Shown here one piece after another: positions 6,819-56,825 of a stretch of DNA of 64,000 nt (position 1 is the first letter of the stretch; each line of letters opens with the position of its first letter). The notes beneath the pieces are model-generated. The model ran no database searches, had not been told where the DNA came from, and worked only from the letters and a program-made list of their open reading frames with translations. The stretch lies in sequence record NC_025447.1; one strand, given 5' to 3'. The position numbers and the translations under genes were made by a program. Origin of the DNA: Escherichia phage 121Q.

Positions 6819-7970
6819 TTAAATATTATCTTGAATCGGTTGGATAGGAGCTTGCCATGAAAGAGTACAAATAATTTCCATTTTTCCATAAGGACTGTTG
6901 TTAACAGAATCGTTGAATACACATGAAATAATTTCATCAACATCGGATGCTGCATGATTAGTTTCATTAACAATAAAACGCATCTGACGATTGATATCAA
7001 AGTAGGAAGTTGGTGCAATTACCGTCCCGCCAATATCTTCTTGTGCTTCACCACCAAAACGTACAAACATATCAGTTACTGGAAGAGAATAAGGTTGTAT
7101 AACGTTTACATCAATATTAGAAACTACATATCCAGCAGGACATGTACCAATAACTAATAGTGCGTTAGTCCATGAGCTATCTATGGTATTTCTAATAGAA
7201 ATTGTATCTTTACCTGGTGCACCTGGTTCGCCTTGTATACCTTGAATACCTTGCTGGCCTTCTTTACCACGGAATAGAATACCCTCACTCCACTCTTTTG
7301 AAGGAGGGGTAGTTGTAGTTACTTCATCAACATAATATAGTTTTCCATCAGTGTTGTTATAAAAACAATAATCAACTGGAAGATTTTCAATACTTGGAAA
7401 TTGATCACCACTGCTATCAATATGGAAACGACCACGCGGACCTTGTTCACCACGGAAAGGTATACCATCACTCCAAGTAGCAGTTACACTTTGATAGAAA
7501 TAAAGTTTACCATCTTGAGTATTATAAAATGTATAGTTATTAAAAAGACCAGTTGTTGGGAAAGTAGTTCCAGCACTATCAATGTGGAACGGCTTACCCG
7601 CTTCACCCGTATCACCTTTACCAAACTCAACACTAATCCATGTACTTGTCGGATCTTGTGCATCATTTGATTTAAAGTATAGAGTACTGGTATTGTTAGC
7701 CAAGCTTAAGTAGCACCACCCAAGTGGTTCACCAACTTTAAATTGTTCGGAAGGAATTTCAAAACCAATCTCATTAGGATAAAAGTTTTTACCATTCTCG
7801 CCATTCTGTCCTACAACAAGACCTAAATCTTGAATTGTGTTATCTGCATAGGTTACAATTAAATGCCCAGCACCATTAATAACTAGACTTTTGATGCCGG
7901 AGTTATTACATGAACCATTAAATGAAATTGTCATAATATTTCCCTTGTATGAGTTAATGTCATATACCAA
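6819..7970 (-). CDS. Tail fiber protein with collagen-like Gly-X-Y triplets
   Basis: 383 aa; GEQGPRGR and GKEGQQGIQGIQGEPGAPGKD collagen-like runs, each preceded by a duplicated ~60-aa unit (FHIDSAGTTFP... and FHIDSSGDQFP...). Confidence 0.5.
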   Translation of the reverse strand: MVYDINSYKGNIMTISFNGSCNNSGIKSLVINGAGHLIVTYADNTIQDLGLVVGQNGENGKNFYPNEIGFEIPSEQFKVGEPLGWCYLSLANNTSTLYFKSNDAQDPTSTWISVEFGKGDTGEAGKPFHIDSAGTTFPTTGLFNNYTFYNTQDGKLYFYQSVTATWSDGIPFRGEQGPRGRFHIDSSGDQFPSIENLPVDYCFYNNTDGKLYYVDEVTTTTPPSKEWSEGILFRGKEGQQGIQGIQGEPGAPGKDTISIRNTIDSSWTNALLVIGTCPAGYVVSNIDVNVIQPYSLPVTDMFVRFGGEAQEDIGGTVIAPTSYFDINRQMRFIVNETNHAASDVDEIISCVFNDSVNNSPYGKMEIICTLSWQAPIQPIQDNI

Positions 7971-25000: not shown

Positions 25001-26052
25001 GCACGAACCCACAAAGAACCATTCCAGTACATAGAACTGTTACCATACTCATTACCTTTGGTGATTAGAACAACATCACCATCTTGAGGTTCACCACTTG
25101 GGCGTGATTCGGTTTCTTCTTCTGGATCTAATGCCAAACCATAAACACGAGTACCATCCTGCATTTTTTTGACATATACATTATAAATTCTATTATTTTC
25201 ACCATTGTTACCAATACTGGTGAATAGAATACGCATACCATCTTGTGGAATAATACCATCAATACGGATGCCACTATTAATATCTTTTTGTACGATATCT
25301 TCAGGTTTGATTATATCTGAGAATAGATCGACAGTTCCACGGAATTTTGTACCGTAGTTAATTAGTTCAATATTTTTATTATATTCGATAATTGGAGCAC
25401 GGGCACGAATAAAGCGAGAATCTTGCATTAATTCTTCAGTTAAAATTGAACCATCTTCTAAAGTTTCACCTAAAGTATACCAAAAGTTTTGTAGTGACCA
25501 TGTATTACCATTAAGTGCACCACGTTCCATTACAATGTAATCAGGTGAAGTAATATTATAAGAGTTTTTAGTATCCCAAAGATATGAGCTAAAATTGTTC
25601 ATTTTATTTGGGTTAATAGCTGGAGTCCATGCATAAAACTTACCGTTGAACAAACGGCTTTCATTATCGGTTAGTGCTCCATAATGATTCATGTATCCAA
25701 CTAGATCATCATAAAATTGAATTGAACGAATTGTCGAATCATCATTTTTTGAGACGTAAGCAGTGGACAACTGATAAAGTTGACGTGCTACAGTACTTTC
25801 ATGTAAGAAGATATTACCAGCAGCGGCAGGAGAACCCATATCACCAATATAGCCGTCAACTAATTCGTTTTCAGCCGGATTAAACCATTGTTGAATAACA
25901 TCATCACTGACTTTTTGAATATCTTCTAAGCCTTGCATCCACTCAGGCAATCTTTTAATAAAAAGCTTCTTCTGTACTGCTTCAGCCATCTGTGTAGGTT
26001 GAAACTTAAAATTATTAGTCATTTTTGGACTCCATATAATTCGTTCATTCAT
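16051..26052 (-). CDS. Giant virion structural protein (3333 aa), probably baseplate or fiber associated
   Basis: Uninterrupted 10-kb ORF directly downstream of the gpJ/gp6-like gene in the same operon; no enzymatic motif recognised. Start is ambiguous: ATG at 26052 has no Shine-Dalgarno, the in-frame ATG at 26022 has GGAG upstream. Confidence 0.6.
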   Translation of the reverse strand: MNERIIWSPKMTNNFKFQPTQMAEAVQKKLFIKRLPEWMQGLEDIQKVSDDVIQQWFNPAENELVDGYIGDMGSPAAAGNIFLHESTVARQLYQLSTAYVSKNDDSTIRSIQFYDDLVGYMNHYGALTDNESRLFNGKFYAWTPAINPNKMNNFSSYLWDTKNSYNITSPDYIVMERGALNGNTWSLQNFWYTLGETLEDGSILTEELMQDSRFIRARAPIIEYNKNIELINYGTKFRGTVDLFSDIIKPEDIVQKDINSGIRIDGIIPQDGMRILFTSIGNNGENNRIYNVYVKKMQDGTRVYGLALDPEEETESRPSGEPQDGDVVLITKGNEYGNSSMYWNGSLWVRAQSKTSVNIFPKFQLYDRNGIKLDNSTTYPSSNFKGSELFGFKINYNYATDSVYGYNIELGDYNYYIYENFLQSQRYTYDHLGKEVEIDGLYYYNIIDENNEMNLQTDWVRSEEYSKQFVKQTPQVKRTDMYRVFSTVYDMEVFKEPVDGMYAYVIEVDRTYQYYKADRETYLDWHPITGDGVQIVKYDHTFELAQKVLDNDSDIIEVVVDGVDVSKYTKNVSKGQVQSITLDSTVDLDEDSVIQIRTYSSTVTPNKELGAYEVPINLQNNPYNSNIIYINQGDYTLHFQDIIQKNITRGSSDDFNDYEERLAKGLVNNGVGTKIIQNEASMLPLMAHTANEDIDLFEATMFMQSEYFRFINKFNTQMLRMYDENPSDFLQNSAANIVDAILTTINMGRDSSFPFYYDNVGSTSGFIRAFIPPTPQFLGILQAYVPEKATFLTAGSKPSCYNISHTGIISKAYRVINGVDKMDDVVYELENRIFNSIDNKFKDVDYVPVLNSDDLFPTPYFTKTEYSAEEKQTLLLRGYINFTATNGISNSTHDYDPNNWRTWNYTGTYYVVNGQSTEIPARGSWRAIYTDQYGTYRPATHPWEMFGFTQRPTWWNQEYEPTAVQVGERDSDVVYVYEALVMNEQGDLVPSGLWDIDGTIGDSSTGTILFGDRRGQYDKYKRFGVQPFKITKTGNKTSSGIDICVVEYIAPEILGLVSGSLNHRAEPWTYGDMGDMEFTYMNTTLFAYDQMMLLYKAKPAQFANYFWDTRNDNLKEVFTDGSQFLYGDTRKRINFDKNTVVHGENSTRTIGYQMFVSDHLMYQNKNITTKYGDVVRSSYINVGHKIGGFTKADQLTFNAKSFGLISQENQTIGLVRSNNIRDEQMSAIKITWNGSAYQIDGYDLVGAKFKYKLPVKNGRKVTLKLENRNVVHYNEWKSEASIEYGKVFNSYQEVYTFICGYGEYLKEHGWIFEDVNDSGAQQDWNTIAKDFVIWSQNSLVTGEFISCTPSAANAKFGADFGSVQSITQNNGGVWSLLDDNNQGIRQYEIETSRIGNIFTVRTLESNKRIALIRLSLCSYEHAVIFDDKTIFGDYIYQPTYGSIQELIKMYGYITGSWTGRLQAPGFIILEAGTLPSFEKLVSDFQHYYDSETPVSDVQLQELSNHLIGYQSRDYLQRMISSDVSRVDFYKGFIHDKGTNQVLERVLRVSKSYDTDEYKALQEWAFKIGTYGNIDGKKNLQFKLINDQFKQQPQMVSFDVNATSNGNGNHIVYFGEQGKDPRWITRPNGKFSFPMRSGRSENIQLPDIGPVTLDEVSYTTKDFSTAYNDRITYTNGKGENPESVWMFKDGNGLWNIFELVDTNVQMVSITPIENTDVYAEQFCKVTLTDNVPLEDGDYYYFVDETNFMPDTLTVESQYYTAGSDPKVMVVPFDTSIDIEFTDPDTRPRLYRYVSRFASTDERQAYIDKKYSFKAPQSTLFDRPTTYDERTNITELYLNVYDPINGVIPGAAMQNVTYTSPVDPAQYNSNGELIQAWGADKVGQVWWNTSTAFYLDYTRAIYDADGNVDIDATNEYKRYNWGRLLPHSTIDVLEWVCSPVEPYNWDKYCKDVAKKNKNNTMYLPSGTALEDNYSTFLEYDSSTDSYVTKYYFWVRDTIYVPPLHTRTKSCTDIARIIKDPTQLNIPWFAPINENSFILSNMQFKVNDDTSILTVSYYMDSTEVVKHDQYQLCKEGDSYNFNPLIWDSMWNSLIGQETTESGSVINLLYPDVDNGLGSNKTWFQNVIEARRNFVESANNYYRSQNITTNSVVMEDVFNVKTTEVNPNEVSFRVLSYNNELVIAVESDKFKENDAVILSTSGYLPNPLTSSAVYFIHFDENGYIQLMNSPANAGSVVTITLENKGEGQHKMIKQSDYVESLGTSLDMTQYWSYADWYDVGYDSNTTYTQESSLEDANTKNYQVGDIIRVTDSENIWTLYIKSQSRDSIYWKAIGRENSTVELNDMLYADYSVHNDNGSLSNREINVRKALALLKNSFDLHQSEIVFDMVKYVHVEQSVVDWVFKTSYIYIVGLEQSLVQNYSNDNLINQIVEYFEEVKPYRTKIRSQIEQKTSDDDLIKGLCNDLDPNGYIFVDGSWIKTEKDIWDYEYAQFNEITQKWEQVGSLPSDFVTPNRRFQEIDIIMHYDNIQCKPNEDLASINELVSVNNKYQSNEKDAVSNYELQRYIYSFPEYSEETFDLLIAYQMQIYYPELDVTLGTAYGVNQWYKDHAEDLEATDEFTATLERVYKESTHNDMFTDLRQYVQYNTLANRLKLYKDISDEKIHDEVGCGFSGLTYNDNPSTRLPLGFSSSNDYNYGYFEISSELYQKYISLIKDKNPDASDYEVKVKLEVEYGVYVYRYDEVGGDTRFYTDAIHVLAGMRGLFDKDATDKYEKAEEILSKTPIDIYAITMIPRKYVYLNVNGVYQSIPDEQSIDDFMEDYFITNGEMVELAEINLDDLPLDQNNPMYSDYQYILDSITEAKYFNDMNAFDNLALESQTSSIKWEVKDDEVDPYIVDISDINPSGRDVGQIRFTVDGYGFDNVSLVQLRDNSRYQTEGMAIINPYKHTEAIVSIPSYAKIENDINKTTSKFDEKYFYRVRSINSLTEAEIVDNDLSDGDKVMIFTPDGEDFVRYQNHTWETILRVSNIKNNTTPILFTVRNTGKETIELIDESTGAVLRYDNITLAQQNEPVQPLALNIVRVRTFADPEFVKNGIKLYEQNRNYTIDVINYDVFYDTTLNGGKYNDGITPDDVDVWIISNEIFDVDGITIDNGYNLPITGAGVLSELARTKMTDSLEINVIEYDSSVIQPFRNNEGIWVYGFPMVDGMYIGVVGGTVTNITTISEENTTYVSQPKSISPYSIRNNVLSGSAANMNDIISIGYEKVEVRNANNLLRGVMYSAEHDFKLNTTYSFNGINLGNYDMLKRYTQNSYTIDLSVYTDSLQVSGNDIKNILLVK

Positions 26053-26101: not shown

Positions 26102-29100
26102 TTAAGAACCGATATTAATATTACTTTTAGCTAGTGAGTTAACAATTTGAACATTTTCAACAGATGCAGTACTCAAAAATATTTGGTCTGAACGTGAAGG
26201 GATTTCAAATAGAGAACCAAATTTTGAATTTGGATTTTGTGCAACTATAACAATAGTACTAATATGTCTACCTAACTGTGAGTGTATGTAAGTACACAAA
26301 TCAGTATAATAGAAACTTTCACCGAAATCCCAGTTATCAACATTGAAGTATTCATTAGTTAATGCTATGACATTTTGACGAATTTCATCATCACTCATTG
26401 TGCTGTTTGGTAATTTCACTACTTTAAAATCAGCTTTGTAATCTTCAGCAGCACTGTTTCCAAATAAAGGTAAGTACTCAGCACTATGCCAAATGATACT
26501 ATCACTAATGACTATTTTTTGTTCAACATCTTTGAACATATCTTTTAATTCAACCGATGTTGGTGGTTTAGGAATACTACCAACAGCATTATTTTTCAAC
26601 CAAACGTCAACTTCAGTTTTATATGAATTGGTTAATACATACATATCAATTAAGTTTGTTCTACTAGGATCAATGCGATTGTCGTCAGGTGCATAGTGTT
26701 TCCAATGGAAGTCTATACTAGTACGTGCATTAGTTTTAACAGTGTACTGTGAAGTAACATCTTTGTATCCATAATAATCTAGCTTCTGATTCTCGTCAGC
26801 ATTAGTTCCCATGTTATTAATTGCACGATAAAAAGCCAATTCAGGACTAACAGTGCCAGTATCATCGGAATAAGTTAAATTACTAATTAGTTGTCCCAAA
26901 CGATCATTGTTATTGCCAACTGTTTGTTCAATAAAATAATATTTACCATCATAGTTAAAACCAACTAAAAATCCAGAACCTTTACTATATAATCCACTCA
27001 ATGTGGTTGAACGAATTGCGTTATTTCTAACAAATTCAGTTCTTTTATATGCATTCGGCTCTGCCAAAGCTTGTTCCATTGTATAAGACCACGATGAATC
27101 AAGAAGTGTGAAGGTATCATTTGGTAACGACAGTACTGATATAGTGAAATCACTATTTTCCTGAAATACCAAAATACCACCATATTTTAATGCATCGGTT
27201 CCAGTCCAAGTAGGAACAATTTCTTTAAATTGGTTTGGTTCCAATGGTATACCATTACTATCTACTTTCCTAGATGTAACAATAACACGAGAACCATCTA
27301 GATAGCCATTCTCTTGTTGAATTGTGTCATAAATTTGAAAATCTATATTACTTGTCAATCCTGAATTACTACTACTAGTAGTGTTAGATGATAAAATTTC
27401 AATCTTATCACTTTGAACTGTACCAGTACTTATATCAGTAATTTTTTTAGATGATACAAAGTAAAATCTTACTTTTTCTCCACCCACAAAAATATATTCA
27501 ATACCGTTAGCATCAAATTCCCAAGTTTCTGCTGTATATTTTACATTTATTATAATTAAAACTTCATTACCATTATACACAATAGTATCGTCATTAGTAC
27601 TTGCTTCGATTGGAACCCATGAAGTTGTTTCTTTATCATGTACAATTACAAAATCGGTTTTTTTATCCAACATAGCAGAAATAGACTGAACTTCAACTGT
27701 GTTAAATCTAGTTCTATATGGTAATATGTACTCTATTGCTTGCATTCCACTAGGAACAGATGTGCTTAGTACATAAAAACCATTATCTAACACACTTACA
27801 ACACTTGCCCATATCGTAGTACCAGAATTAGAAAATTTAATAAGAGTACCTACCTGATACGAACCATACACTGTTCCAGACGAACCCAAAATTCTGCCAT
27901 ATGTATTGGTTGTGTAATTTGAATTGTACACTGGAGTCCATGCTTGTTGTATTTCAATACCAATTGTATTGGATGGATACGCTTGGTAACGTTGTATTAC
28001 TGCATTTTCCCCAATCAATGGTTGAATATTGTCAATAACAATACTAGCATTTGTTTTTGTAGTTGGGAGCAATAACGATCTATTAAATTGCGTGTTTTCT
28101 TGATATAATGCACCATCATCACTAAAAACGTCGGTATTCTGATACTTACCAGTAGGATCATTGATATCAATGAACCTTGATTGACCACTATAAATTCTAT
28201 TAATAGCTTTAGATTTAAGTACTGTATTTCCTAAACTAAGTGGTGCTATATTATAATCTTCACCATTGACAAAACGGTTTTGGGTATAGTACATTTGTGG
28301 TGCACGTGCTTTAATCTGCTCAATAGTTTCAGCACTTTGTGCACGGTCGGATTCATATTGTAATGAAAAACGTATATCCAATGTACTAGATTCATAACTT
28401 GACTGTGTTTTTGTACGATATGTATATTTTACGCTTTTGTTTTGAATTTCAGAAGTTTTAATGTTATATGTTTTACCATTACTAACACGATACCATACAC
28501 GGAACGTCCCACGGGGAACAACACCACTTCTTGAGTCTGGGTACTTAATTGTTATTTGGTCTTTATCACGAGTAGTAACAGCAAAAATTGTTTTTAATTG
28601 ACGATTAACAGTGTTATATGCAATACTTTCCATTGATGGAACTTTTGTCCATTTGGTACGAACAATACCATCTTCATTTATTTCTTGAACCCATACATCA
28701 GTTTCGTTGATATTATCAACGTTAATATCTTGTATACGGTTCTCTTCACGGATAGCATATTGATAATCTTGATATGTTAATGTACCTTGTACGAAATATA
28801 CAAAAAACCCAGTATTTGGTGAGCTAAATCCATTACCATCATTTTGATAAACAATATATTTTTGCTCTTGTGGTTCTGGATGTCGTTCTTCAACACCAAC
28901 AGACGTAATATCAGGATTCACTACTTCAAATGTCATAGATTCACCATTGACAGTTGCAATAAATGGAATACTGGGTGCTGTCATTGGGATGGTGTTCATT
29001 CGATATAGTTGACGGGAGACACCATTAACATCAATACGCTTGACTGGATTACCAAATTGGTTAGTACTGACAAATGAACTGTTCATTACTAGAATAAAGT

Positions 29101-29563
29101 TTTCATACCAGTTAGCATCCATCGGGTCATTCCAACGAATAATTTTATCTTTTAATGATTCATTAAAACTATTACGAACATCTTGGTTTGTTTTAATTTC
29201 GGTTAATTTAGCAACTGCACGACCTGGATATGAGCGGCGTGGTGAGTAAGAAATCATTTTAGCTAGTTTTAGTACTGACGCACGACGAGTTGCAGTATCT
29301 AAAAAGTTTTCACGCGTGTTCAAATCCATACGAAATGCCAAGTTTTGTCCTAGCATAGAAATCGTATCTAAAATAAAAATAAACTGGTCGTTTTCGATCC
29401 AGTCGTTAAATGAATCTGGGTAAGTTGCACGTAGATAATCAATCATACTCTGACGGATAGTGTCGAAGTCATAAGCTGTTAGATTGATTTTATAAAAACT
29501 TTCATATACTTGAGTCCAATCCTCACCACTATATAAATTAGACTGTCTTTTTTGTTGTGACAT
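26102..29563 (-). CDS. Baseplate wedge protein, gpJ/gp6-like N-terminus
   Basis: 1153 aa; N-terminal region (DFDTIRQSMIDYLRATYPDSF...ATRRASVLKLAKMISYSPRRSYPGRA) resembles the baseplate J family as I recall it; position after the gp25-like gene matches the usual spike-W-J order. Confidence 0.5.
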   Translation of the reverse strand: MSQQKRQSNLYSGEDWTQVYESFYKINLTAYDFDTIRQSMIDYLRATYPDSFNDWIENDQFIFILDTISMLGQNLAFRMDLNTRENFLDTATRRASVLKLAKMISYSPRRSYPGRAVAKLTEIKTNQDVRNSFNESLKDKIIRWNDPMDANWYENFILVMNSSFVSTNQFGNPVKRIDVNGVSRQLYRMNTIPMTAPSIPFIATVNGESMTFEVVNPDITSVGVEERHPEPQEQKYIVYQNDGNGFSSPNTGFFVYFVQGTLTYQDYQYAIREENRIQDINVDNINETDVWVQEINEDGIVRTKWTKVPSMESIAYNTVNRQLKTIFAVTTRDKDQITIKYPDSRSGVVPRGTFRVWYRVSNGKTYNIKTSEIQNKSVKYTYRTKTQSSYESSTLDIRFSLQYESDRAQSAETIEQIKARAPQMYYTQNRFVNGEDYNIAPLSLGNTVLKSKAINRIYSGQSRFIDINDPTGKYQNTDVFSDDGALYQENTQFNRSLLLPTTKTNASIVIDNIQPLIGENAVIQRYQAYPSNTIGIEIQQAWTPVYNSNYTTNTYGRILGSSGTVYGSYQVGTLIKFSNSGTTIWASVVSVLDNGFYVLSTSVPSGMQAIEYILPYRTRFNTVEVQSISAMLDKKTDFVIVHDKETTSWVPIEASTNDDTIVYNGNEVLIIINVKYTAETWEFDANGIEYIFVGGEKVRFYFVSSKKITDISTGTVQSDKIEILSSNTTSSSNSGLTSNIDFQIYDTIQQENGYLDGSRVIVTSRKVDSNGIPLEPNQFKEIVPTWTGTDALKYGGILVFQENSDFTISVLSLPNDTFTLLDSSWSYTMEQALAEPNAYKRTEFVRNNAIRSTTLSGLYSKGSGFLVGFNYDGKYYFIEQTVGNNNDRLGQLISNLTYSDDTGTVSPELAFYRAINNMGTNADENQKLDYYGYKDVTSQYTVKTNARTSIDFHWKHYAPDDNRIDPSRTNLIDMYVLTNSYKTEVDVWLKNNAVGSIPKPPTSVELKDMFKDVEQKIVISDSIIWHSAEYLPLFGNSAAEDYKADFKVVKLPNSTMSDDEIRQNVIALTNEYFNVDNWDFGESFYYTDLCTYIHSQLGRHISTIVIVAQNPNSKFGSLFEIPSRSDQIFLSTASVENVQIVNSLAKSNINIGS

Positions 29564-31337: not shown

Positions 31338-34001
31338 TTATTGACATGCCTCCAAACGACGAGCCATTAACTCCGCACGGCGTGTGGTTTGGCGATACCA
31401 AGCAGAATTGCGGATTTGTGCCGCTGCTTGTTTATAATTACCTTTTGCCATTTCTGATAACATAGTTTTAAATTTCAATACACCACCTTTACCCATCTGA
31501 AATACCATTTGGCATAGTACTTGTTGAGCAAGATAAGGAGTTTTCATGTTATATGAAGCATAAATTGATTTGGCATCATAAATTGCTTTACTACTATCAC
31601 GAACTAACATATCATTTGCTTGTTGTTCAGTTATTCCATCAGAGAAGTTTTCACCGCTAACAATTAAGTGACCGTAACCAATAGTTGGATATCCACGACT
31701 ATCTAAATAACGCCAGAACTTACCATTACGATAATATCCCTTTGCTTGTTGATATTGTAATGTACCCTCATATTCTTTTAATTCAGAAATAAACTGAGCA
31801 TCACCTGGAACAACTTTCCAATCTATGGCTGTTTTATCAACATTACCTATATTATAAGTTGGTTGCTCAACTGGCGTAGTTGAAACACCACTTCTTTGTG
31901 TTCTTCTTCGACGAGGAACATGTCGTGAACCACGTTGTGAATAACCTGTACCAATTGTTTTAATTTTTGTAGTAACTACTAATTCATCACTATCAACAGA
32001 AGGTTGCACTACTGCTTGAGGTGCAGATTGATTGGTTGCTTTTCCTGCAATTAATGTTTTATTGGCTGCGTCAGAACCAGTACCAGTTTGAGATGCATAA
32101 AATAGACCCGGATCAACTGAACCGCTAAAACCAAGCACGTTAGCTGATGTAACACGTATTTCAAACTGTATAACACCATTTGCTTTACCAACAACTTGGC
32201 CTTTTTGAACAACATCTTTGTTTAATAAATCAGATTGAATATTATAAAATACAGATTTATATCCTGACTTATGTTGTATTAACAGTGCACCATTAGTAAT
32301 TACTATTACACCACCATCGGGTGCAACTATGTCACCTTTACATTGTATTTCCCATCCAGAACGATCTGACTTCCCACCACTTTGTGTTGGAACACCTTTC
32401 CCCCAATAACCATATTGGCGAATAGTACCACTACATGGCATGAACATATGTAAACCTTCATATGTAATACTATATCCAGTCATCCCAGGGTCAGATGTCA
32501 TTAAATCTTGAGATTGCACTTGTTCAGTTTCTGATGTATAGTTAACAAACTGAACAGCTTCAGTGTCTTGTGCTACGGGTAATTCTGGTGATACATCATT
32601 TGCTGGTTGTGGTTGTACTGGTGATTCACTAGAACCACTTCCACCACCTTGTCTTGGTGGTTCAACATAACTACCATGATTTTCAGCGTTAACCCATGCA
32701 GCAATATCATGAATGTGTTCATTAAGACCAGCAGATGGTGTTCTAAAGTTTGGTGCAGTAAATTCAGCAGTACCGCTATTACCACCACTATTAACTGTTA
32801 ATGTTTGTCCACCACCACTAATAATTGCTGATGATGATCCAATTAGGTTTGCAGATGTTGCGGCAGAAATAGAAGCATTTGAACCAGCCGTAATATCAGT
32901 ACTGCTACCACTTTGCATACGTAATGATGCAGCAGTAACTAAACGAAGGTCTGCCCCAGAATTAACAACAACTTGTCCACCAACTTTTGCATCAAGAGCA
33001 CCAATTAGATCTAATTTAGTATTTGCACCAACTCGTGCATTGAAATCTTGTCCGGTTTCAATATTATATGAACGTCCAGCAGTAATATTAATATCTTGAC
33101 CAGCACGAATATTAATATTCTTATCACAGTGCATGTCAATATCACCTTCACCAGTGAATTTTATACGTGCAGTGCCATCACGGTTAATTAAAAGAACATC
33201 ACCAGTAGCTTCTGATAAAAGAAGTTGTGCACCACTACGTGTTTTTATTACGACACCTTCATTTTTACGAGAACCAACACGTGTATCGTTTACTGGGTTA
33301 TTAAATTGTGTATCTTGATATCCATCTGGGTCTTGATCCCACGTTGGTGCTGTTAATTCCTCTTCAGTATATCCATCATCAATAATAAAACTATTACCAC
33401 GTGGCGAAGACATACCATATACAGTACTGGTGGTTTGTCGAGTACTACTACGATTCGCCAACCCAGCTTCTTCGTCATATAAAAGGTTTTGCTTTTTAAG
33501 ACCTGCGATAATTGGAACGTTAGCATATTTGTCTTGCATATCGGTAGTGATAGTGTTACGATCATAGTCAGTAACAGGAAGTGGCATATCAGTTCCACCA
33601 TAATTACTTACTTCAGTTGCCATGCCTGGAACCATAGTATTCATACGCTGGTCATATACACAACCAATCCAATATGCTTGGAATGTACGGGCTTGTGCAA
33701 AAATTACAACAACTGTACACCCTACATCTGGTGGTACTGCCCAAAAACCGTATCCTTTTGGATATTGACCATATGCATCAGCACTTGGAATACCTGGTGT
33801 TTTACCAGCAAAAGGAGACATGTAAGATGCTTCTATCCATGATTCTTTTGAGTTTTTATCACTTTGAGAACCTTGTATCCAAACTTTCAGTTTTCCTGAT
33901 TTAGTTGGATCTCTGTTATCCATAACAGTTGCTAACTGCGGATAAGATGGGTCAAAACGACCCAACTGCTGTTGTGCATACTTTTTACTTGTATCTGCCA
34001 T
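31338..34001 (-). CDS. Baseplate central spike: gp5-like N-terminus, beta-helical repeats, degenerate M23/LytM-like domain, C-terminal T4-lysozyme-like domain
   Basis: 887 aa; repeat region INIRAGQDINITAGRSYNIETGQDFNARVGANTKLDLIG...; M23-like GDIVAPDGGVIVITNGALLIQHKSGYKSVFYNI...VQKGQVVGKANGVIQFEIRV with the HxH motif replaced by QFE; C-terminal EYEGTLQY...PTIGYGHL...MVFQMGKGGVLKF lysozyme domain (about 31338-31829). Confidence 0.7.
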   Translation of the reverse strand: MADTSKKYAQQQLGRFDPSYPQLATVMDNRDPTKSGKLKVWIQGSQSDKNSKESWIEASYMSPFAGKTPGIPSADAYGQYPKGYGFWAVPPDVGCTVVVIFAQARTFQAYWIGCVYDQRMNTMVPGMATEVSNYGGTDMPLPVTDYDRNTITTDMQDKYANVPIIAGLKKQNLLYDEEAGLANRSSTRQTTSTVYGMSSPRGNSFIIDDGYTEEELTAPTWDQDPDGYQDTQFNNPVNDTRVGSRKNEGVVIKTRSGAQLLLSEATGDVLLINRDGTARIKFTGEGDIDMHCDKNINIRAGQDINITAGRSYNIETGQDFNARVGANTKLDLIGALDAKVGGQVVVNSGADLRLVTAASLRMQSGSSTDITAGSNASISAATSANLIGSSSAIISGGGQTLTVNSGGNSGTAEFTAPNFRTPSAGLNEHIHDIAAWVNAENHGSYVEPPRQGGGSGSSESPVQPQPANDVSPELPVAQDTEAVQFVNYTSETEQVQSQDLMTSDPGMTGYSITYEGLHMFMPCSGTIRQYGYWGKGVPTQSGGKSDRSGWEIQCKGDIVAPDGGVIVITNGALLIQHKSGYKSVFYNIQSDLLNKDVVQKGQVVGKANGVIQFEIRVTSANVLGFSGSVDPGLFYASQTGTGSDAANKTLIAGKATNQSAPQAVVQPSVDSDELVVTTKIKTIGTGYSQRGSRHVPRRRRTQRSGVSTTPVEQPTYNIGNVDKTAIDWKVVPGDAQFISELKEYEGTLQYQQAKGYYRNGKFWRYLDSRGYPTIGYGHLIVSGENFSDGITEQQANDMLVRDSSKAIYDAKSIYASYNMKTPYLAQQVLCQMVFQMGKGGVLKFKTMLSEMAKGNYKQAAAQIRNSAWYRQTTRRAELMARRLEACQ

Positions 34002-52360: not shown

Positions 52361-52434
52361 TATTAAAAAACCCTTTACACAATGTTCTGGAATGTATATA
52401 ATACGCACATACACGAAAATAAAGAGACAAAATT

Positions 52435-53532
52435 ATGCCAAACGTAAGTATCAACAAAGAAGAGTTTATCAGCAAAATGACTGCTAAGTATGGTGAATTT
52501 GATTTCAGTACTTTAGTATTCAAAGCAAGTAAAACAACTGTGAAATGTAACAAGTGTGGAAAAGAAAACATAAAATCTGCACTTCGTCACATTGCATGTA
52601 CATGTGCATCATGTTATTCAAACATGTCGCAACGTTCAAACAACGACACATTCATCAGCACGGTAGAAAATAAATTTGGTAAAGATAAATTCAAATTTGA
52701 TAAACTAAATTACACTAACGCTATAACAAAAGTAACACTCTTTTGCACTGATGAAGAGCACAACGATTACTTTGAAATAACACCAAACAAATTTCTTTCT
52801 GGTAAGGGATGTCCTGTGTGTAATAAAAATGAAGCATACAGTACTGAATCATTCACTGCAAAAGTAAAAGAAAACTATGGTGATGCATTGGATTTGACAA
52901 ATACTGTTTATGTCAATCAGAAAACTAAAGTAACGGTTCATTGCACAAAAGGACATCACGACTGGACAGTAGATCCAAAAACTTTAATCGTCGGTAAAAC
53001 TGGCTGTGGTACATGCTCTGGTAAAGGTGGACGAAGTACTGAGCGTTTCATTGAACTAGTATCACCAATTCATAACCATAAGTATGATTATAGCTTGGTG
53101 GATTATACAACAAGTGAGAAGTATGTGGATATTGTGTGTCCGACGCATGGTGTTTTTTCCCAACAACCAAAAGCACATATGGCGGGTAAAGGATGTCCAT
53201 CATGTGGTGAATATGGATATCAACCATCAAAACCTGGATATTTCTATGTTCAAAAACTAACTAACAATGACAAGACGGTGTACAAATATGGAATCACTGG
53301 TGATATGAAACGCCGTGTAAACGAACAAAGTCGTAATTCTGGGTTCGAACATGAAGTACTAGTAGAACGCTACTTTGAAGATGGAAATCAACCATTACTG
53401 TTGGAAAAGTTCATAAAGAAATACATTGAAAGTGGAGTAGTAAGTACTGAAGAGTTGCCGTCAGGATTTACTGAAACGTTTGATGAAAAGTATCTAAAAT
53501 CTGTACTGGAAATTGTAAATAACTTTAAGTAA
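52435..53532 (+). CDS. Homing-endonuclease-like protein: three zinc-ribbon repeats plus C-terminal GIY-YIG/T5orf172-like domain
   Basis: 365 aa; repeats ...CTDEEHNDYFEITPNKFLSGKGCPVC, ...CTKGHHDWTVDPKTLIVGKTGCGTC, ...CPTHGVFSQQPKAHMAGKGCPSC; C-terminal GYFYVQKLTNNDKTVYKYGITGDMKRRVNEQ. Confidence 0.5.
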   Translation: MPNVSINKEEFISKMTAKYGEFDFSTLVFKASKTTVKCNKCGKENIKSALRHIACTCASCYSNMSQRSNNDTFISTVENKFGKDKFKFDKLNYTNAITKVTLFCTDEEHNDYFEITPNKFLSGKGCPVCNKNEAYSTESFTAKVKENYGDALDLTNTVYVNQKTKVTVHCTKGHHDWTVDPKTLIVGKTGCGTCSGKGGRSTERFIELVSPIHNHKYDYSLVDYTTSEKYVDIVCPTHGVFSQQPKAHMAGKGCPSCGEYGYQPSKPGYFYVQKLTNNDKTVYKYGITGDMKRRVNEQSRNSGFEHEVLVERYFEDGNQPLLLEKFIKKYIESGVVSTEELPSGFTETFDEKYLKSVLEIVNNFK

Positions 53533-53927: not shown

Positions 53928-54254
53928 ATGATGGAGATTGAATCTATGTCACAGATATGTTATGTTATAATAAATTCTGCATGGCCTGAGTATGTTAAAA
54001 TTGGTTTTACTTCAAAATCAGAAATGACAGAACGTCTAAGAACGTATCAGACTGCTACACCATTTCGTGACTTTGAAGTATATCATGAAGTTCATTTTGA
54101 TGACGCACGTTTAGCTGAAAAAGAGATACATAAAAGGCTTAAACAAATGAATGCAACTAGACAACCAAACACGGAGTGGTTTAAAATGTCTAAAAAGATA
54201 GCAGCAAACATCATTGATTCTGTGTGGGATGATATGGATAACGACTTGCTATAG
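53928..54254 (+). CDS. GIY-YIG/T5orf172-like domain protein
   Basis: 108 aa; CYVIINSAWPEYVKIGFTSKSEMTERLRTYQT fits the pattern of a hydrophobic strand, then KIG-T, then a conserved Arg. Confidence 0.45.
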   Translation: MMEIESMSQICYVIINSAWPEYVKIGFTSKSEMTERLRTYQTATPFRDFEVYHEVHFDDARLAEKEIHKRLKQMNATRQPNTEWFKMSKKIAANIIDSVWDDMDNDLL

Positions 54255-54294
54255 GAATAAATATAGTATATATTAATCATAAAGGGATTTATAC

Positions 54295-55905
54295 ATGAGC
54301 ATAAGTTTTAATAACCCATTGGATACAATGACCAGTACTGGTGCTAATGGATCTTTAGAACTAATAGTGCTTGGTGGTACACCAACTAACCCAAGACCTA
54401 TTCGTTTTAATTCGTCATCAGTTATTATACCAGTACAAACGTTACCTACTGGTGAACAAGGTGCAATGGTTTTTGATCGAAACGAATTAGTTTTGAAGTA
54501 TCATAACGGTACAAGTTGGATTGCAGTATACGATACTGATACTATTTTGGAACCAATTAGAATTTCATTAGATGAAGTAAACAGAAAATTAAATTTAAAA
54601 GTAGAAAGTGTAACATACAGTAGTAGTACTGTTCCTAGTGCAAGTATTAGTGGAACAAACTTAAACATTGTATTCCCTACTGCTTCTAGTGGTGGTTCTG
54701 GTCCAACTGGTCTTTACACTTCACTTAAACCAGGTGCTATTACACAATATTCATTGACTTCTGGTCAATCTGTTGCTAGTATACGTGAACAAATGTCAGG
54801 ACAATCGAATGGACAAAGTGGGAGAAACGGTTCACAAGGTGCTCCGTGGAAAACGTCTGACGGTTGGTGTTTTGCTGATGGTATGTGGTGGCAATGGGAG
54901 GGGGAAAATGGTACAATTACCAAACAAGTACCAAACCTTAACCAAAACGCGTACTTAAAAGGGATATCCACATCAGGTGTAACTAAAACTGATAGTGTTA
55001 TTGGTAGTAGCGGTAATATTAGCGGCACAGTATTAAGTGTTGCCCAATTACCATCACACTCATTTAGTTTTAGTGGGACCACAGGGGCTGCTGGTCGTCA
55101 TGGTCATAGTCAAGCACTAAAAGGTATGGACCGTAGTGGTCTAAATGCGTTAACTTCAAGTAATGATAACGGTATACCAACTGTAATCAATAACATTAAC
55201 GAAGCACCAGACCACATTCACTCATTTAGTGGAAACACTAACACACTTGGTGGAAACCAACCACACTATCATGGTATTAGTAACATTGATGTGGAACACT
55301 TTAACGTTGCATATCTATATAACATTGCTGAATCTAACGTCGCATTGAGTGAAAAAGTTGCAAACACTCGTTATGTACTAAAAACTGGTGATACAATGAC
55401 TGGTTCATTGACTATTGCAAACAGTGCGTCAATTAAGTCAAATGATACATCATTAGTTCTATATTTCCGTAACGCAAGCGGTGGTGAGCGTGCGGCAGTG
55501 TATCATAACTCTTCAAATAATACATTGAGATTACGTTCCGGTGGAGCAGAAGTTACTGTAAACTCTTCTGGTACTTTAGCTGCTCCATCATTAACTGTTT
55601 CTAACAACTCAGCTACTGTTGGTGGTAAAAATATTGTTCGTTCAATTAACGGTACTGCTGCTGATGCTAGTGGCAACGTTACTTTGCAAATTAGTACTAA
55701 TAACGTACAAAGTATTCGTTTGAGTGCACGTATTGAAACAAGTAAAATACCTGATTCTTCATGGACATATACACCAGAAGGTGCATTTATGGATGGCGTA
55801 TGGATTTCTGTTAATGGTAGTTCAGGCACTCACTTAGAACGAATTAGTTATCGCTATGTTCAAATGCAAATAAATGGTAACTGGGAAACAGTACGTCAAC
55901 AATAA
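54295..55905 (+). CDS. Tail-fiber-like protein with His-rich (HxH) motifs
   Basis: 536 aa, Ser/Thr/Gly/Asn-rich; SHSFSFSGTTGAAGRHGHS and DHIHSFSGNTNTLGGNQPHYHGIS resemble metal-binding HxH motifs of T4 fiber tips. Confidence 0.45.
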   Translation: MSISFNNPLDTMTSTGANGSLELIVLGGTPTNPRPIRFNSSSVIIPVQTLPTGEQGAMVFDRNELVLKYHNGTSWIAVYDTDTILEPIRISLDEVNRKLNLKVESVTYSSSTVPSASISGTNLNIVFPTASSGGSGPTGLYTSLKPGAITQYSLTSGQSVASIREQMSGQSNGQSGRNGSQGAPWKTSDGWCFADGMWWQWEGENGTITKQVPNLNQNAYLKGISTSGVTKTDSVIGSSGNISGTVLSVAQLPSHSFSFSGTTGAAGRHGHSQALKGMDRSGLNALTSSNDNGIPTVINNINEAPDHIHSFSGNTNTLGGNQPHYHGISNIDVEHFNVAYLYNIAESNVALSEKVANTRYVLKTGDTMTGSLTIANSASIKSNDTSLVLYFRNASGGERAAVYHNSSNNTLRLRSGGAEVTVNSSGTLAAPSLTVSNNSATVGGKNIVRSINGTAADASGNVTLQISTNNVQSIRLSARIETSKIPDSSWTYTPEGAFMDGVWISVNGSSGTHLERISYRYVQMQINGNWETVRQQ

Positions 55906-55915
55906 GGAATGTGTA

Positions 55916-56431
55916 ATGCAACTAACAAATTTTAAGATGTATGAAAAAGAAGGTGGTAATCCTAATTCTTTGTATATGATGTCCGATGAAGGTATGGATT
56001 GGTATGAATCTCGTGAATTGTTTGACATTAATAAAGCAAAATTTATGTATGATACTAATGGTTTAATTGTTTCAGCATCATATAACATTTATGATCTAGT
56101 ACCTTTAGGTTTTAGTGTTTCTGAAATTGAATATGATGGTGATATTAACAAACTTTATGGTATGGTTTACGATGGAAATACTATTCATGACTATATTGAA
56201 ACTAAAGAAGAAAAAATTGAACGCCTAAAAAATGAATTATCTAATTTGAAATACATTGCAATTCAAGAACTTGGACACTTAAAAACTGCTATGGATCTTG
56301 AGTTAGCAACTGATGAAGAAGCTGTATTGTTTGTAAAATTGAAAGATTATGTAACGCAATTGAATTCAATCAAACCAGCAGACATGATCAAGAAAACATT
56401 TTCATTTCCAGTTAAACCGGAAAAAAAATGA
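55916..56431 (+). CDS. Putative tail fiber assembly chaperone
   Basis: Immediately downstream of the fiber-like gene; start set to the ATG at 55916 (AAGGA 7 nt upstream). Assignment is by position and size only. Confidence 0.35.
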   Translation: MQLTNFKMYEKEGGNPNSLYMMSDEGMDWYESRELFDINKAKFMYDTNGLIVSASYNIYDLVPLGFSVSEIEYDGDINKLYGMVYDGNTIHDYIETKEEKIERLKNELSNLKYIAIQELGHLKTAMDLELATDEEAVLFVKLKDYVTQLNSIKPADMIKKTFSFPVKPEKK

Positions 56432-56464
56432 GACAACACGTAAAGACGTGATACAATTAAGTCA

Positions 56465-56497
56465 TCTCACCGATTGTGGTGAGGTGGCATTTTTTTT
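56465..56497 (+). terminator. Rho-independent terminator candidate
   Basis: CTCACC-GATTGT-GGTGAG hairpin followed within a few bases by an 8-nt T-run. Confidence 0.45.
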
Positions 56498-56522
56498 GAA
56501 AACACACATGGAGAAATACAAA

Positions 56523-56825
56523 ATGGCTAAATCTAAAAAAGAAGTTAAAGTTGAAATTCGTGATCTAAACGATGAACAACGTAAACGTCTCGGTGATGCA
56601 CTGAACAACATTGTCGTACAACTAACTTTCATTGATGATACCAAAGCATCCTTATCTGATTTTGTTTCTAGTGTTTCTGATGAACTTGGTATCGATGCAT
56701 CTGATATCAAGCAAGCTGCACAACGTATGTACAAAGGTGATTACTTTGACAAACAAAATAAACTCGATAATATCGAAACTATTCTTAGTGTTACTAATAA
56801 TCTTCCACAAGCAGATGATTACTAA
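56523..56825 (+). CDS. Hypothetical protein
   Basis: Start set to the ATG at 56523 (GGAGAA 7 nt upstream); the ORF-track start runs through the terminator hairpin. Confidence 0.4.
   Translation: MAKSKKEVKVEIRDLNDEQRKRLGDALNNIVVQLTFIDDTKASLSDFVSSVSDELGIDASDIKQAAQRMYKGDYFDKQNKLDNIETILSVTNNLPQADDY

What the first reader, a model, noticed from the sequence alone, without database searches (positions are those of the whole stretch)
54295..56431. Extra fiber-like gene with HxH motifs plus a possible chaperone, located between the head and replication modules
The 536-aa protein has Ser/Thr/Gly/Asn-rich repeats and clustered HxH motifs (RHGHS, DHIHS, PHYHG) reminiscent of metal-binding fiber tips. 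The next gene is the right size and position for an assembly chaperone. It lies away from the main fiber locus, suggesting a separately acquired receptor-binding cassette.
Basis: partly seen in the sequence, partly recalled or inferred. Interest (0 to 1): 0.45.

Follow-up and report, generated by a model that had tools for sequence, protein, structure and literature searches.

The report
Jumbo-phage baseplate fibre with chaperone
This is the known baseplate fibre gene of RaK2-like jumbo phages and its assembly chaperone; the fibre is an old core gene, and only its last ~73 codons plus the chaperone were swapped in as a unit.

Summary
A 536-aa ORF (54295-55905) has three HxH motifs, and the next gene is a Caudo_TAP tail-fibre assembly protein. 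Its real start is probably 55916, giving 171 aa.

The window is an Asteriusvirus jumbo coliphage, 99.9% identical to phAPEC6. The protein is 100% identical to proteins annotated as "tail fiber" in several phage records.

It is the orthologue of Klebsiella phage RaK2 gp098 and Pectobacterium phage CBB gp260. Both are virion proteins by mass spectrometry. RaK2 gp098 sits at the baseplate, is needed for infection, and has been proposed as a secondary receptor-binding protein.

The gene is not a separately acquired extra. It occupies the same slot, between the capsid gene and the DNA polymerase gene, in at least four genera.

Only the last ~73 codons plus the chaperone gene (55684-56420) form an exchangeable cassette. 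A close relative carries a different tip and no chaperone gene.

The HxH motifs lie in an internal module (aa ~184-345), not at the end of the protein. This module is homologous to the collar/HxH end-modules of other fibres and motif-similar to T4 gp37. Metal binding is inferred, not shown.

Verdict: ordinary and already known, with one undescribed architectural detail.

The parts
54281..54287 (+). Shine-Dalgarno-like AAAGGGA, 7 nt upstream of the fibre start codon
   Evidence: Read directly from the sequence.
54295..55905 (+). Tail/baseplate fibre gene, 536 aa. Orthologue of RaK2 gp098, K64-1 S2-8 and CBB gp260.
   Evidence: ORF. phrog_13229, E 1e-273, full length. 100% identical to proteins under 'tail fiber'/'hypothetical' CDSs in PBECO4, G17, SP27 and others. 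Orthology and synteny. Literature on the orthologues.
54295..54843 (+). aa 1-183: conserved N-terminal region, presumed baseplate anchor and proximal part
   Evidence: 53-65% median identity to sequences from other genera, against about 36% for the tip. The anchor role is inferred.
54844..55329 (+). aa 184-345: internal collar-like, HxH-repeat, small head loop and closing-strand module
   Evidence: Profile of aa 180-350 found 312 proteins at E<=1e-3 among 1.84e9. In the non-family hits the match ends a median of 11 aa from the C-terminus. Some of those hits carry Pfam Collar or Gp10_C. hhalign family versus non-family: 99.6% probability, E 1.5e-23. Versus T4 gp37 C-terminus: 89.8%, E 1.8e-6.
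55057..55065 (+). His site A (aa 255-257, H-S-F here; HxH in the 'type II' subfamily)
   Evidence: H255 in 107 of 121 sequences. Position 257 is F in 77 and H in 43.
55099..55107 (+). HxH site B (aa 269-271, HGH)
   Evidence: Present in 79-80 of 121 sequences. Always lost together with site C.
55213..55221 (+). HxH site C (aa 307-309, HIH)
   Evidence: Present in 79 of 121 sequences. Co-occurs with site B.
55264..55272 (+). HxH site D (aa 324-326, HYH), invariant
   Evidence: H324 and H326 are present in 121 of 121 sequences.
55330..55587 (+). aa 346-431: conserved distal shaft, beginning with the RYVLKTGDTMTGSL fibre motif
   Evidence: 60% median identity across genera. The motif is shared with the Seunavirus SPLA5a fibre. 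The matching region of RaK2 gp098 was modelled as a T4 gp34-like beta-helix (PMC10253068).
55588..55902 (+). aa 432-536: exchangeable distal tip of the Tfa-dependent type
   Evidence: 44% identical to the SPLA5a fibre tip, E 7e-21. 37-44% identical to the 4MG and GAP31 fibre tips. Replaced by Gp53-like_C or Peptidase_S74 ends in relatives. Identity of aa 471-536 falls to 11-57% even in close relatives.
55684..56420 (+). Swapped cassette: last ~73 codons of the fibre gene plus essentially the whole tfa gene
   Evidence: blastn of the window against the close relative L009. Homology runs to 55683 (80.8%) and resumes at 56421 (85.5%), with nothing in between. L009 has a Gp53-like_C tip and no tfa.
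55904..55908 (+). AAGGA ribosome-binding site for tfa, overlapping the fibre stop codon
   Evidence: Read directly from the sequence.
55916..56431 (+). Tail-fibre assembly chaperone (Tfa), 171 aa. The 185-aa ORF from 55874 is the mechanical maximum.
   Evidence: Pfam Caudo_TAP, 38.3 bits against a 22.1-bit cut-off. phrog_136, E 1.6e-37. 29% identical to the CBB Tfa, E 8e-11. 26% identical to the SPLA5a Tfa, E 3e-5. The phAPEC6 record annotates this start.
56461..56498 (+). Intrinsic-terminator-like hairpin (12-bp stem, 6 GC pairs) followed by a run of T, 30 nt after the tfa stop
   Evidence: Consensus scan: 5 sites found against 1.3 expected. Function is not shown.

Best explanation
The gene pair encodes the conserved baseplate-associated fibre of RaK2-like jumbo phages and its Tfa-type assembly chaperone.

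Shown here:
- The 536-aa protein is the full-length, syntenic orthologue of RaK2 gp098, K64-1 S2-8 and CBB gp260.
- It has four parts: a conserved N-terminal region (aa 1-183), an internal collar-like/HxH module (aa 184-345), a conserved distal shaft (aa 346-431) and an exchangeable tip (aa 432-536).
- The tip and the tfa gene come and go together as one cassette.

Taken from the literature on orthologues:
- The protein is a virion component.
- Antibody against it blocks infection, and it has been proposed as a secondary receptor-binding protein.

Inferred:
- The protein is a homotrimer.
- Each HxH site supplies six histidines on the threefold axis and holds one Fe(II) or Zn(II) ion, as in T4 gp37, T4 gp12 and R-pyocin fibres. 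That would give three ions in this phage and two in the RaK2/CBB subtype. The ions would register and stiffen the three chains.
- Tfa binds the nascent distal tip through its variable N-terminal domain and trimerises through its conserved C-terminal helices. Folding would start from the tip.
- After primary adsorption by other fibres or spikes, the C-terminal tip binds a cell-surface receptor and commits the phage to irreversible attachment. This is the role T4 gp12 plays.
- This protein is a good candidate for the six ~29-nm short baseplate fibres seen by electron microscopy on phAPEC6 and CBB.
For: Identity:
- phrog_13229 matches at E 1e-273 over the full length.
- The protein is 100% identical to PBECO4, G17 and SP27 proteins. 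It is 50% identical to CBB and GAP32 and 48.5% identical to RaK2 over the first 87%.

Synteny: the order capsid gene, fibre, small conserved gene, DNA polymerase holds in four genera.

Virion presence and function of orthologues:
- CBB_260 gave 11 peptides and 24% coverage (PMC5259590; locus tag checked).
- RaK2 gp098 was found by MS/MS, placed at the baseplate of contracted particles by immunogold labelling, and neutralised by antiserum (PMC10253068).

Chaperone:
- Pfam Caudo_TAP scores above its cut-off.
- tfa is absent where the tip is Gp53-like_C, both in RaK2 and in the close relative L009.
- The cassette boundaries are 55684 and 56420.
- The related tip in Seunavirus SPLA5a and 4MG is also followed by a 171-aa Tfa.
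- Tfa proteins are modular (PMC9608196).

HxH module:
- Site D is invariant in 121 of 121 sequences. Sites B and C are always gained or lost together, and site A becomes HxH when they are lost.
- The family profile matches collar/HxH end-modules at 99.6% probability, E 1.5e-23, and T4 gp37 at 89.8%.
- A mixed profile reaches PDB 2XGF (gp37) at E 1.9e-10.
- HxH sites bind Fe or Zn octahedrally in gp37, gp12 and pyocin fibres (PMC6116203).

Weak fold support: the best Foldseek hit of the full-length model is the Mu fibre-chaperone complex 5YVQ, E 5.7e-4.

Short fibres on the virion: six short baseplate fibres are reported for phAPEC6 and CBB, 28.6 nm long in CBB.
Against: - Nothing has been measured for this phage. 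The phAPEC6 virion proteome does not list the protein. That is uninformative, because the ORF is not annotated in the phAPEC6 record.
- The RaK2 orthologue has a different tip (Gp53-like_C) and the other His configuration, so function transfers only by orthology.
- In RaK2 the recombinant C-terminal fragment did not block adsorption, and no short fibres were seen.
- Metal binding and the trimeric state are not shown.
- The family-only profile reaches no solved structure significantly, and HMMER against gp37 gives E 0.14. The link to gp37 therefore rests on hhalign and on intermediate sequences.
- The collar/HxH module is terminal in other fibres. How a trimer continues for about 190 residues after it is unexplained.
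Confidence: 0.78

Rival explanations
1. One reading: an additional, separately acquired receptor-binding cassette (fibre plus chaperone) that supplements a main fibre locus and extends host range.
For: - The gene pair is far from the other fibre and tailspike genes of the window, such as the tailspike-like gene at 4663-6804.
- The 3' end of the fibre gene plus tfa really is a swapped unit.
- The tip is related to tips of unrelated Vequintavirinae phages.
Against: - The first ~460 codons are conserved and syntenic across four genera.
- There is one copy per genome, that is, one matching place in every record listed.
- The RaK2 orthologue is essential, not accessory.
Confidence: 0.1
2. It is the distal subunit of a long tail fibre, in the manner of T4 gp37. 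The fHe-Yen9-04 record annotates its orthologue as 'Long tail fiber protein p37'.
For: - The HxH repeat and head-loop region aligns with the gp37 needle and head.
- The orthologue carries that annotation.
Against: - In RaK2 the long fibres are built from gp526-534, and gp098 is not among them by immunogold labelling.
- The similarity to gp37 covers only about 70-130 residues.
- No gp34, gp35 or gp36-like partner genes lie next to it.
Confidence: 0.07
3. It forms the 'hairy' whisker filaments seen on the tail sheath and capsid of phAPEC6 and CBB. The genes for these filaments are unknown.
For: - Both hairy phages carry the gene.
- The whisker proteins were never identified.
- The ORF was missing from the phAPEC6 protein database.
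Against: - The family is equally present in RaK2 and GAP32, for which the CBB paper says no such whiskers have been described.
- The CBB whiskers are ~119 nm long, too long for a 536-aa trimer. From my own knowledge, T4 gp12 has 527 aa and is about 34 nm long.
- The RaK2 orthologue is at the baseplate.
Confidence: 0.04
4. The N-terminal two-thirds (aa 1-345) is a baseplate-embedded adaptor like T4 gp10. Its collar/HxH knob would contact other baseplate proteins rather than the host, and only the C-terminal ~190 residues would form the actual fibre.
For: - Several non-family relatives of the module also match Pfam Gp10_C.
- The head loop (aa 272-306) is 97-100% conserved among close relatives whose tips differ.
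- The C-terminal part resembles a complete short fibre of SPLA5a from its GDTMTG motif onward.
- This would explain why a normally terminal module is internal here.
Against: - There is no direct similarity of this family to T4 gp10.
- The head loop differs strongly between genera (9-17% identity), which is more than a purely structural contact would suggest.
- No structural data exist.
Confidence: 0.3

Closest known systems
Klebsiella phage RaK2 gp098 (identical to K64-1 S2-8)
   Same: - Orthologue: 48.5% identity over the first 87% of the protein.
- Same gene slot between the capsid gene and the DNA polymerase gene.
- Same family in the profile search.
- Experimentally a virion baseplate protein, essential for infection and proposed as a secondary receptor-binding protein (PMC10253068).
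   Different: - The RaK2 protein ends in a Gp53-like_C domain (PF21882, E 5.5e-10) and has no tfa gene downstream.
- It has the 'type II' His pattern, with HxH at sites A and D only.
- Its hosts are capsulated Klebsiella.
Pectobacterium phage CBB gp260/gp261 and Cronobacter phage GAP32 homologues
   Same: - A fibre plus Tfa pair in the same slot.
- 50% identity for the fibre and 29% for the Tfa.
- CBB_260 was detected in virions by MS.
   Different: - Type II His pattern.
- A different tip sequence.
- The Tfa is shorter, at 137 aa.
T4 gp37 C-terminal collar-needle-head domain (PDB 2XGF)
   Same: - The same repeat unit, SH-x-FSF-G-T-x-x-AG-x-H-x-H.
- The same layout: HxH, a short head loop of about 30 aa, HxH, then a closing strand.
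- In gp37 the HxH motifs bind iron octahedrally (PMC6116203).
   Different: - gp37 has seven HxH motifs and the module ends the protein. Here there are three, and the module is internal.
- The direct sequence statistics are marginal.
- gp37 uses gp38 and gp57A as chaperones (PMC9608196), not a Caudo_TAP protein.
T4 gp12 short tail fibre
   Same: A functional analogy only. It is a baseplate-bound fibre of similar size (527 aa) that is hidden until the baseplate changes shape, then performs secondary, irreversible binding. It has one HxH metal site.
   Different: - No detectable sequence similarity.
- Pfam Collar hits none of 32 family members.
Phage Mu tail fibre and Tfa (PDB 5YVQ); lambda Stf/Tfa
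   Same: - The downstream chaperone belongs to the same Pfam family, Caudo_TAP.
- The best Foldseek hit of the full-length model is 5YVQ.
- Tfa proteins have a variable N-terminal domain and a conserved C-terminal domain.
   Different: - The fold match is weak (TM 0.10-0.15).
- Mu Tfa stays on the virion, whereas phAPEC6 Gp220 was not detected by MS.
Seunavirus (Vequintavirinae) SPLA5a and 4MG baseplate-adjacent fibre plus 171-aa Tfa
   Same: - The distal ~105 aa are 44% identical, E 7e-21.
- The GDTMTG motif is shared.
- A 171-aa Tfa follows directly.
   Different: - These fibres are only 370-410 aa long.
- The pairwise comparison shows no counterpart of aa 1-336, so they lack the N-terminal region and the collar/HxH module.
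- The Tfa is only 26% identical over 53 residues.

Membership tests
Caudo_TAP tail-fibre assembly proteins (Pfam PF02413; lambda Tfa, Mu Tfa) | Profile match above the curated threshold | tested here: met
   38.3 bits against a 22.1-bit cut-off, E 1.7e-9. phrog_136, E 1.6e-37.
Caudo_TAP tail-fibre assembly proteins (Pfam PF02413; lambda Tfa, Mu Tfa) | Encoded immediately downstream of the fibre gene it serves, and varying together with the fibre tip | tested here: met
   The start codon lies 11 nt after the fibre stop. tfa is absent when the tip is Gp53-like_C. Tip and tfa are replaced as one block, 55684-56420.
Caudo_TAP tail-fibre assembly proteins (Pfam PF02413; lambda Tfa, Mu Tfa) | Required for folding and trimerisation of the fibre tip | not testable with these tools
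   Needs co-expression experiments.
RaK2 gp098 / CBB gp260 fibre family (phrog_13229) | Full-length sequence homology | tested here: met
   phrog_13229, E 1e-273, residues 1-536. 141 homologues found. Alignment A1.
RaK2 gp098 / CBB gp260 fibre family (phrog_13229) | Conserved gene position between the major capsid protein gene and the DNA polymerase gene | tested here: met
RaK2 gp098 / CBB gp260 fibre family (phrog_13229) | Virion component located at the baseplate | not testable with these tools
   Shown only for orthologues. The phAPEC6 MS study could not score the protein because the ORF is unannotated.
T4 gp37-type collar-needle-head, HxH iron-binding end-module | Conserved HxH motifs in a repeated S/T/G-rich unit | tested here: met
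   Three HxH here. Site D is invariant in 121 of 121 sequences, and every member has at least two.
T4 gp37-type collar-needle-head, HxH iron-binding end-module | Significant sequence or profile similarity to gp37 or its relatives | tested here: inconclusive
   Strong to non-family collar/HxH proteins: hhalign 99.6%, E 1.5e-23, and HMMER E down to 3e-10 in 1.84e9 proteins. Moderate to gp37 itself: hhalign 89.8%, E 1.8e-6. Not significant by HMMER or BLASTP.
T4 gp37-type collar-needle-head, HxH iron-binding end-module | The module forms the C-terminal end of the fibre | tested here: not met
   179-260 residues follow the closing strand in all 121 family members. In 89% of non-family relatives the match ends within 25 aa of the C-terminus.
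T4 gp37-type collar-needle-head, HxH iron-binding end-module | Octahedral Fe/Zn coordination by six His in a trimer | not testable with these tools
   Only monomer prediction is available. pLDDT is 45-55 in this region.
T4 gp12 short tail fibre / Pfam Collar (PF07484) | Sequence or profile similarity | tested here: not met
   BLASTP found nothing. hhalign probability was 0.1-0.2%. Pfam Collar matched 0 of 32 members at E<=1.
T4 gp12 short tail fibre / Pfam Collar (PF07484) | Predicted fold matches the gp12 collar or head | tested here: inconclusive

The most novel reading that the evidence does not exclude
The gp098-family fibre may be a covalent 'fibre on a fibre'. A complete miniature gp37-like tip (collar, two-rung HxH metal needle, ~32-aa head loop; aa 184-345) would be followed by a second, Tfa-folded fibre segment with its own exchangeable tip.

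On this reading the trimer carries two distinct binding heads. One is conserved within a genus. The other is swapped between close relatives.

The protein would have to adopt a branched or folded-back geometry that is not seen in solved fibres. That would also account for the reported failure of AlphaFold to model RaK2 gp098, both as a monomer and as a trimer.
Probability: 0.2. Interest if true: 0.55.

Novelty: already known. Interest (0 to 1): 0.27.

Why it matters
This settles what the gene pair is: the secondary, baseplate-level receptor-binding fibre of a group of jumbo phages now being tried as therapeutics, not an exotic add-on.

Three practical points follow:
- The host-range-relevant part is small and well delimited. 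It is the last ~73 codons plus tfa, and natural alternatives exist that need no separate chaperone. That is useful for tip swapping.
- The published phAPEC6 virion proteome could not have seen this protein, because the ORF is unannotated. The assignment of that phage's six short baseplate fibres should be revisited.
- The family carries an internal collar/HxH module that was not described in the RaK2 study. This gives a concrete target for metal analysis and for trimer modelling.

Tried and rejected
- Single-sequence and family-profile searches of PDB sequences found nothing significant.
- T4 gp12 was compared directly by BLASTP and hhalign and showed no similarity, so gp12 membership is rejected.
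- Pfam Collar did not match any of the 32 family members.
- An HMMER profile of the middle region against T4 proteins ranked gp37 first among non-family sequences, but only at E 0.14.
- AlphaFold2 monomer models were weak: pLDDT 65.1 for the full length and 68.8 for the middle module with distant homologues added. The HxH region stayed near 45-55.
- Foldseek on the full-length model gave the Mu fibre-chaperone complex at E 5.7e-4 but with TM 0.10-0.15. I treat this as weak support only.
- The sigma-70 promoter scan was at chance level, 17 sites against 15 expected, so I make no promoter call.
- I considered the whisker-filament reading and the long-tail-fibre reading and rate both unlikely (see the rival explanations).
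- A literature search for an Asteriusvirus receptor found only a second-hand mention of flagella for phage SHEFM2K.
Full report
**What is in the sequence**

The two ORFs are real: 54295-55905 (+), 536 aa, and 55874-56431 (+), 185 aa.

- Ser, Gly, Thr and Asn make up 42.7% of the larger protein.
Eight of the 11 histidines fall in residues 255-335.
- Three or more HxH arose in only 0.14% of 20,000 shuffles of the protein.
- The fibre start has an AAAGGGA 7 nt upstream.
- The second gene most likely starts at ATG 55916, giving 171 aa. An AAGGA overlapping the fibre stop codon lies 7 nt upstream. The family alignments begin at residue 15 of the 185-aa ORF. The phAPEC6 record uses this start.
- A strong terminator-like hairpin (12-bp stem plus a run of T) sits at 56461-56498, just after the pair.

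**Where the window comes from**

- The region is 99.9% identical to Escherichia phages phAPEC6 and SP27 and 98.7-99.3% identical to PBECO4, G17, Sharanji, slurp01 and others. These are Asteriusvirus jumbo myoviruses of about 350 kb.
- The protein is 100% identical to products of several of these records, annotated either 'tail fiber protein' or 'hypothetical protein'. RefSeq PBECO4 calls the pair 'tail fiber protein | tail fiber assembly protein'.
- The window also holds the baseplate wedge, the hub/lysozyme gene, a 3333-aa giant ORF, a colanic-acid-degrading tailspike-like gene and the head module.

**Identity of the two proteins**

- The 536-aa protein matches phrog_13229 'tail fiber protein' over its full length, E 1e-273. 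It has no Pfam hit of its own.
- The downstream protein passes Pfam's threshold for Caudo_TAP (38.3 against 22.1 bits) and matches phrog_136 at E 1.6e-37.
- A database search found 141 homologues. Nearly all are 515-600 aa long and many come from contigs of 300-380 kb. Named members are from GAP32, CBB, XbC2, SE_PL, fHe-Yen9-04, pEa_SNUABM_47 and phiKp_21.
- tblastn adds RaK2, K64-1 ('S2-8: tail fiber protein'), Muenster, Serratia phage BF and others. Every record listed shows a single matching place.

**Not a separately acquired extra gene**

- The gene order is the same in four genera: major capsid protein, one to three small endonuclease-like genes, this fibre, a small conserved gene (phrog_12534) and DNA polymerase. 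The genera are Asteriusvirus (phAPEC6), Mimasvirus (CBB), Alcyoneusvirus (RaK2) and Eneladusvirus (fHe-Yen9-04).
- Against sequences from other genera, median identity is 53-65% for aa 1-254 and 60-68% for aa 327-431. It is only about 35% for aa 255-326 and aa 432-536.

**What is known about the orthologues**

- CBB_260, the CBB orthologue by locus tag, was found in purified virions with 11 peptides and 24% coverage (PMC5259590).
- RaK2 gp098 is in virions by MS/MS. Antibody to its C-terminal part labels the bottom of the baseplate, mainly on contracted particles.
- That antibody lowers plating efficiency. The protein is not part of the long fibres.
- They also report that AlphaFold2 failed on the first ~370 residues and that HHpred found nothing for the full length.
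- In phAPEC6 the Tfa (Gp220) was not detected by MS, and the fibre is not in the proteome table. The 536-aa ORF is intact in that genome but has no CDS annotation, only a 150-nt 'gp221c' inside it. Its absence from the table therefore says nothing.
- Six short baseplate fibres are visible on phAPEC6 and CBB, 28.6 nm long in CBB. Linking them to this protein is my inference.

**The tip and the chaperone form one cassette**

The family has three kinds of C-terminal end:
- the type here, which ends ...W-x-T-V;
- a Gp53-like_C domain (PF21882);
- a Peptidase_S74 intramolecular chaperone domain (PF13884).

RaK2 has the Gp53-like_C end and no tfa. The small conserved gene follows the fibre directly.

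I tested the prediction in a close relative. Protein P0015 is 90% identical over the first 86% and ends in Gp53-like_C. On its contig the fibre is followed directly by the small gene and the polymerase, with no tfa.

blastn of the window against that contig shows homology up to 55683 and again from 56421, with nothing between. The exchanged unit is therefore the last ~73 codons of the fibre gene plus tfa.

Among close relatives, aa 471-536 drop to 11-57% identity while the rest of the protein stays at 65-100%.

The tip (aa 432-535) is 44% identical (E 7e-21) to the tip of a 410-aa fibre of Seunavirus SPLA5a. That fibre sits next to baseplate genes and is likewise followed by a 171-aa Tfa. The fibre of phage 4MG is arranged the same way.

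Tfa proteins are described as modular. A variable N-terminal domain binds the fibre, and a conserved C-terminal helical domain trimerises (PMC9608196).

**The HxH region is an internal end-module**

Across 121 sequences there are four His sites:
- A: aa 255/257
- B: aa 269/271
- C: aa 307/309
- D: aa 324/326

Site D is invariant. The sequences fall into two patterns:
- 'Type I' (78 sequences, including this one) has A = HxF and B, C and D = HxH.
- 'Type II' (42 sequences, including CBB, GAP32 and the RaK2-like protein of phiKp_21) has A = HxH, has lost B and C together, and keeps D.

One further sequence has HxH at all four sites.

A profile of aa 180-350 built from family members only (A2) was run against 1.84 billion representative proteins. 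It gave 312 hits at E<=1e-3.

- Beyond the family, the hits are mostly short proteins, median 271 aa.
- In these the match ends a median of 11 residues from the C-terminus, and within 25 residues in 89% of them.
- Several carry Pfam Collar (P0182, E 5e-16) or Gp10_C.
- The alignment shows shared blocks: GW-x-x-x-DG; P-[DN]-L-[RN]; L-[ST]-x-x-Q-[LI]-P-x-H-x-[HF]-x-F-S-G-x-T-x3-G-x-H-x-H; a variable loop; G-x-H-x-H-[TS]-F-S-G-x-T; and a closing hydrophobic strand.

Profile-profile comparison:
- Family against these relatives: 99.6% probability, E 1.5e-23, over 129 columns that run to the relatives' C-termini.
- Family against the T4 gp37 C-terminus: 89.8%, E 1.8e-6. Sites A and B, the loop and site C align with gp37's HTH/HSH, its head domain and its HSH.
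- Family against the T4 gp12 C-terminus: 0.1%.

A profile mixing family and relatives reaches several PDB entries:
- 2XGF (T4 gp37), E 1.9e-10
- 9NXK (phage Pa223 fibre), E 2e-11
- 9QGO (Photorhabdus PVC fibre), E 5e-10
- 1OCY (T4 gp12), E 1e-3

The family-only profile reaches none significantly, and HMMER against gp37 gives E 0.14.

I conclude that the module is a diverged member of the collar/HxH end-module superfamily. The link to gp37 is well supported through intermediate sequences but only moderately supported directly. It is not a detectable relative of gp12.

HxH sites in gp37, gp12, R-pyocin fibres and P2/phi92 spikes bind Fe or Zn through six histidines on the trimer axis, probably as folding reference points (PMC6116203). 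Metal binding here is an inference from that.

**What is unusual**

In every one of the 121 family members, 179-260 residues follow the closing strand. A module that normally ends a fibre is internal here.

- The C-terminal part starts with the RYVLKTGDTMTGSL motif. From there on it resembles a whole short fibre of SPLA5a.
- Sites B and C, which lie on either side of the loop, are always gained or lost together. This fits an out-and-back hairpin like the gp37 needle.
- If so, the chain returns to the collar before continuing. How a threefold-symmetric trimer accommodates this is open.

Two readings remain:
- a two-headed or branched fibre;
- a gp10-like baseplate adaptor knob followed by the real fibre.

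The loop (aa 272-306) is 97-100% conserved among close relatives whose tips differ, but only 9-17% conserved between genera. It is not the fast host-range determinant.

**Structure prediction**

- The full-length monomer model had pLDDT 65.1. Its best Foldseek hit was the Mu fibre-chaperone complex 5YVQ, at E 5.7e-4 but TM 0.10-0.15.
- Monomer models of intertwined trimers are not informative here.

**Verdict**

The pair is the already annotated, conserved baseplate fibre of RaK2-like jumbo phages and its Tfa chaperone. The family has been characterised experimentally in RaK2.

This analysis adds four things:
- the precise limits of the tip-plus-chaperone cassette;
- the recognition of an internal collar/HxH module with two alternative histidine patterns;
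- the corrected chaperone start;
- the annotation gap in phAPEC6.

Interest is low to moderate.

Noticed in passing
window 54295-55905; L001 12001-13611 (phAPEC6 MK817115 137511-139121): The phAPEC6 GenBank record has no CDS for the intact 536-aa fibre ORF. It has only a 150-nt 'gp221c' inside it. The published virion mass-spectrometry list therefore could not include this protein, and the assignment of that phage's six short baseplate fibres to other gene products may need revisiting.
   Followed up: partly
window 52435-53532 and 53928-54254: Homing-endonuclease-like genes sit between the capsid gene and the fibre gene. One is a 365-aa protein with treble-clef zinc-finger repeats and a T5orf172 end (phrog_681 'endonuclease', E 1e-78). 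The other is a 108-aa T5orf172/MUG113 protein. Window 52365-53145 has no DNA homology to the close relative L009, which carries a different 309-aa DUF723 protein there. This interval looks like a hot spot for mobile endonuclease genes.
   Followed up: partly
window 56448-56825 (probable true start ATG 56521): A small conserved gene (phrog_12534; weaker match to phrog_639 'transcriptional regulator') always lies between the fibre/tfa genes and the DNA polymerase gene in RaK2, fHe-Yen9-04, CBB and here. The mechanical GTG ORF overlaps the terminator-like hairpin at 56461-56488, so it probably starts later. Its function is unknown.
   Followed up: partly
window 16051-26052 (-): A 3333-aa ORF lies next to the baseplate wedge (26102-29563) and hub/lysozyme (31338-34001) genes. 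By size it corresponds to phAPEC6 gp245 (382 kDa, 17 peptides in virions, annotated hypothetical).
   Followed up: no
window 4663-6804 (-) and 6819-7970 (-): A 713-aa protein matches phrog_6117 'colanic acid degradation' (E 3e-264) and has tailspike-like N-terminal matches. A 383-aa 'tail protein' lies next to it. This is a likely depolymerase spike, separate from the fibre studied here.
   Followed up: no
L004 6635-7198 (Yersinia phage fHe-Yen9-04 g254): In this phage the fibre ends in a Peptidase_S74 intramolecular chaperone domain. An unrelated 188-aa gene (phrog_26008, unknown function, no Pfam hit) occupies the position where tfa sits in other phages.
   Followed up: partly
window 55057-55272 (aa 255-326) across 121 homologues: The family splits cleanly into two histidine patterns: HxF+HxH+HxH+HxH (78 sequences) and HxH+none+none+HxH (42 sequences). 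One sequence has all four HxH. The two middle sites are never lost singly.
   Followed up: yes
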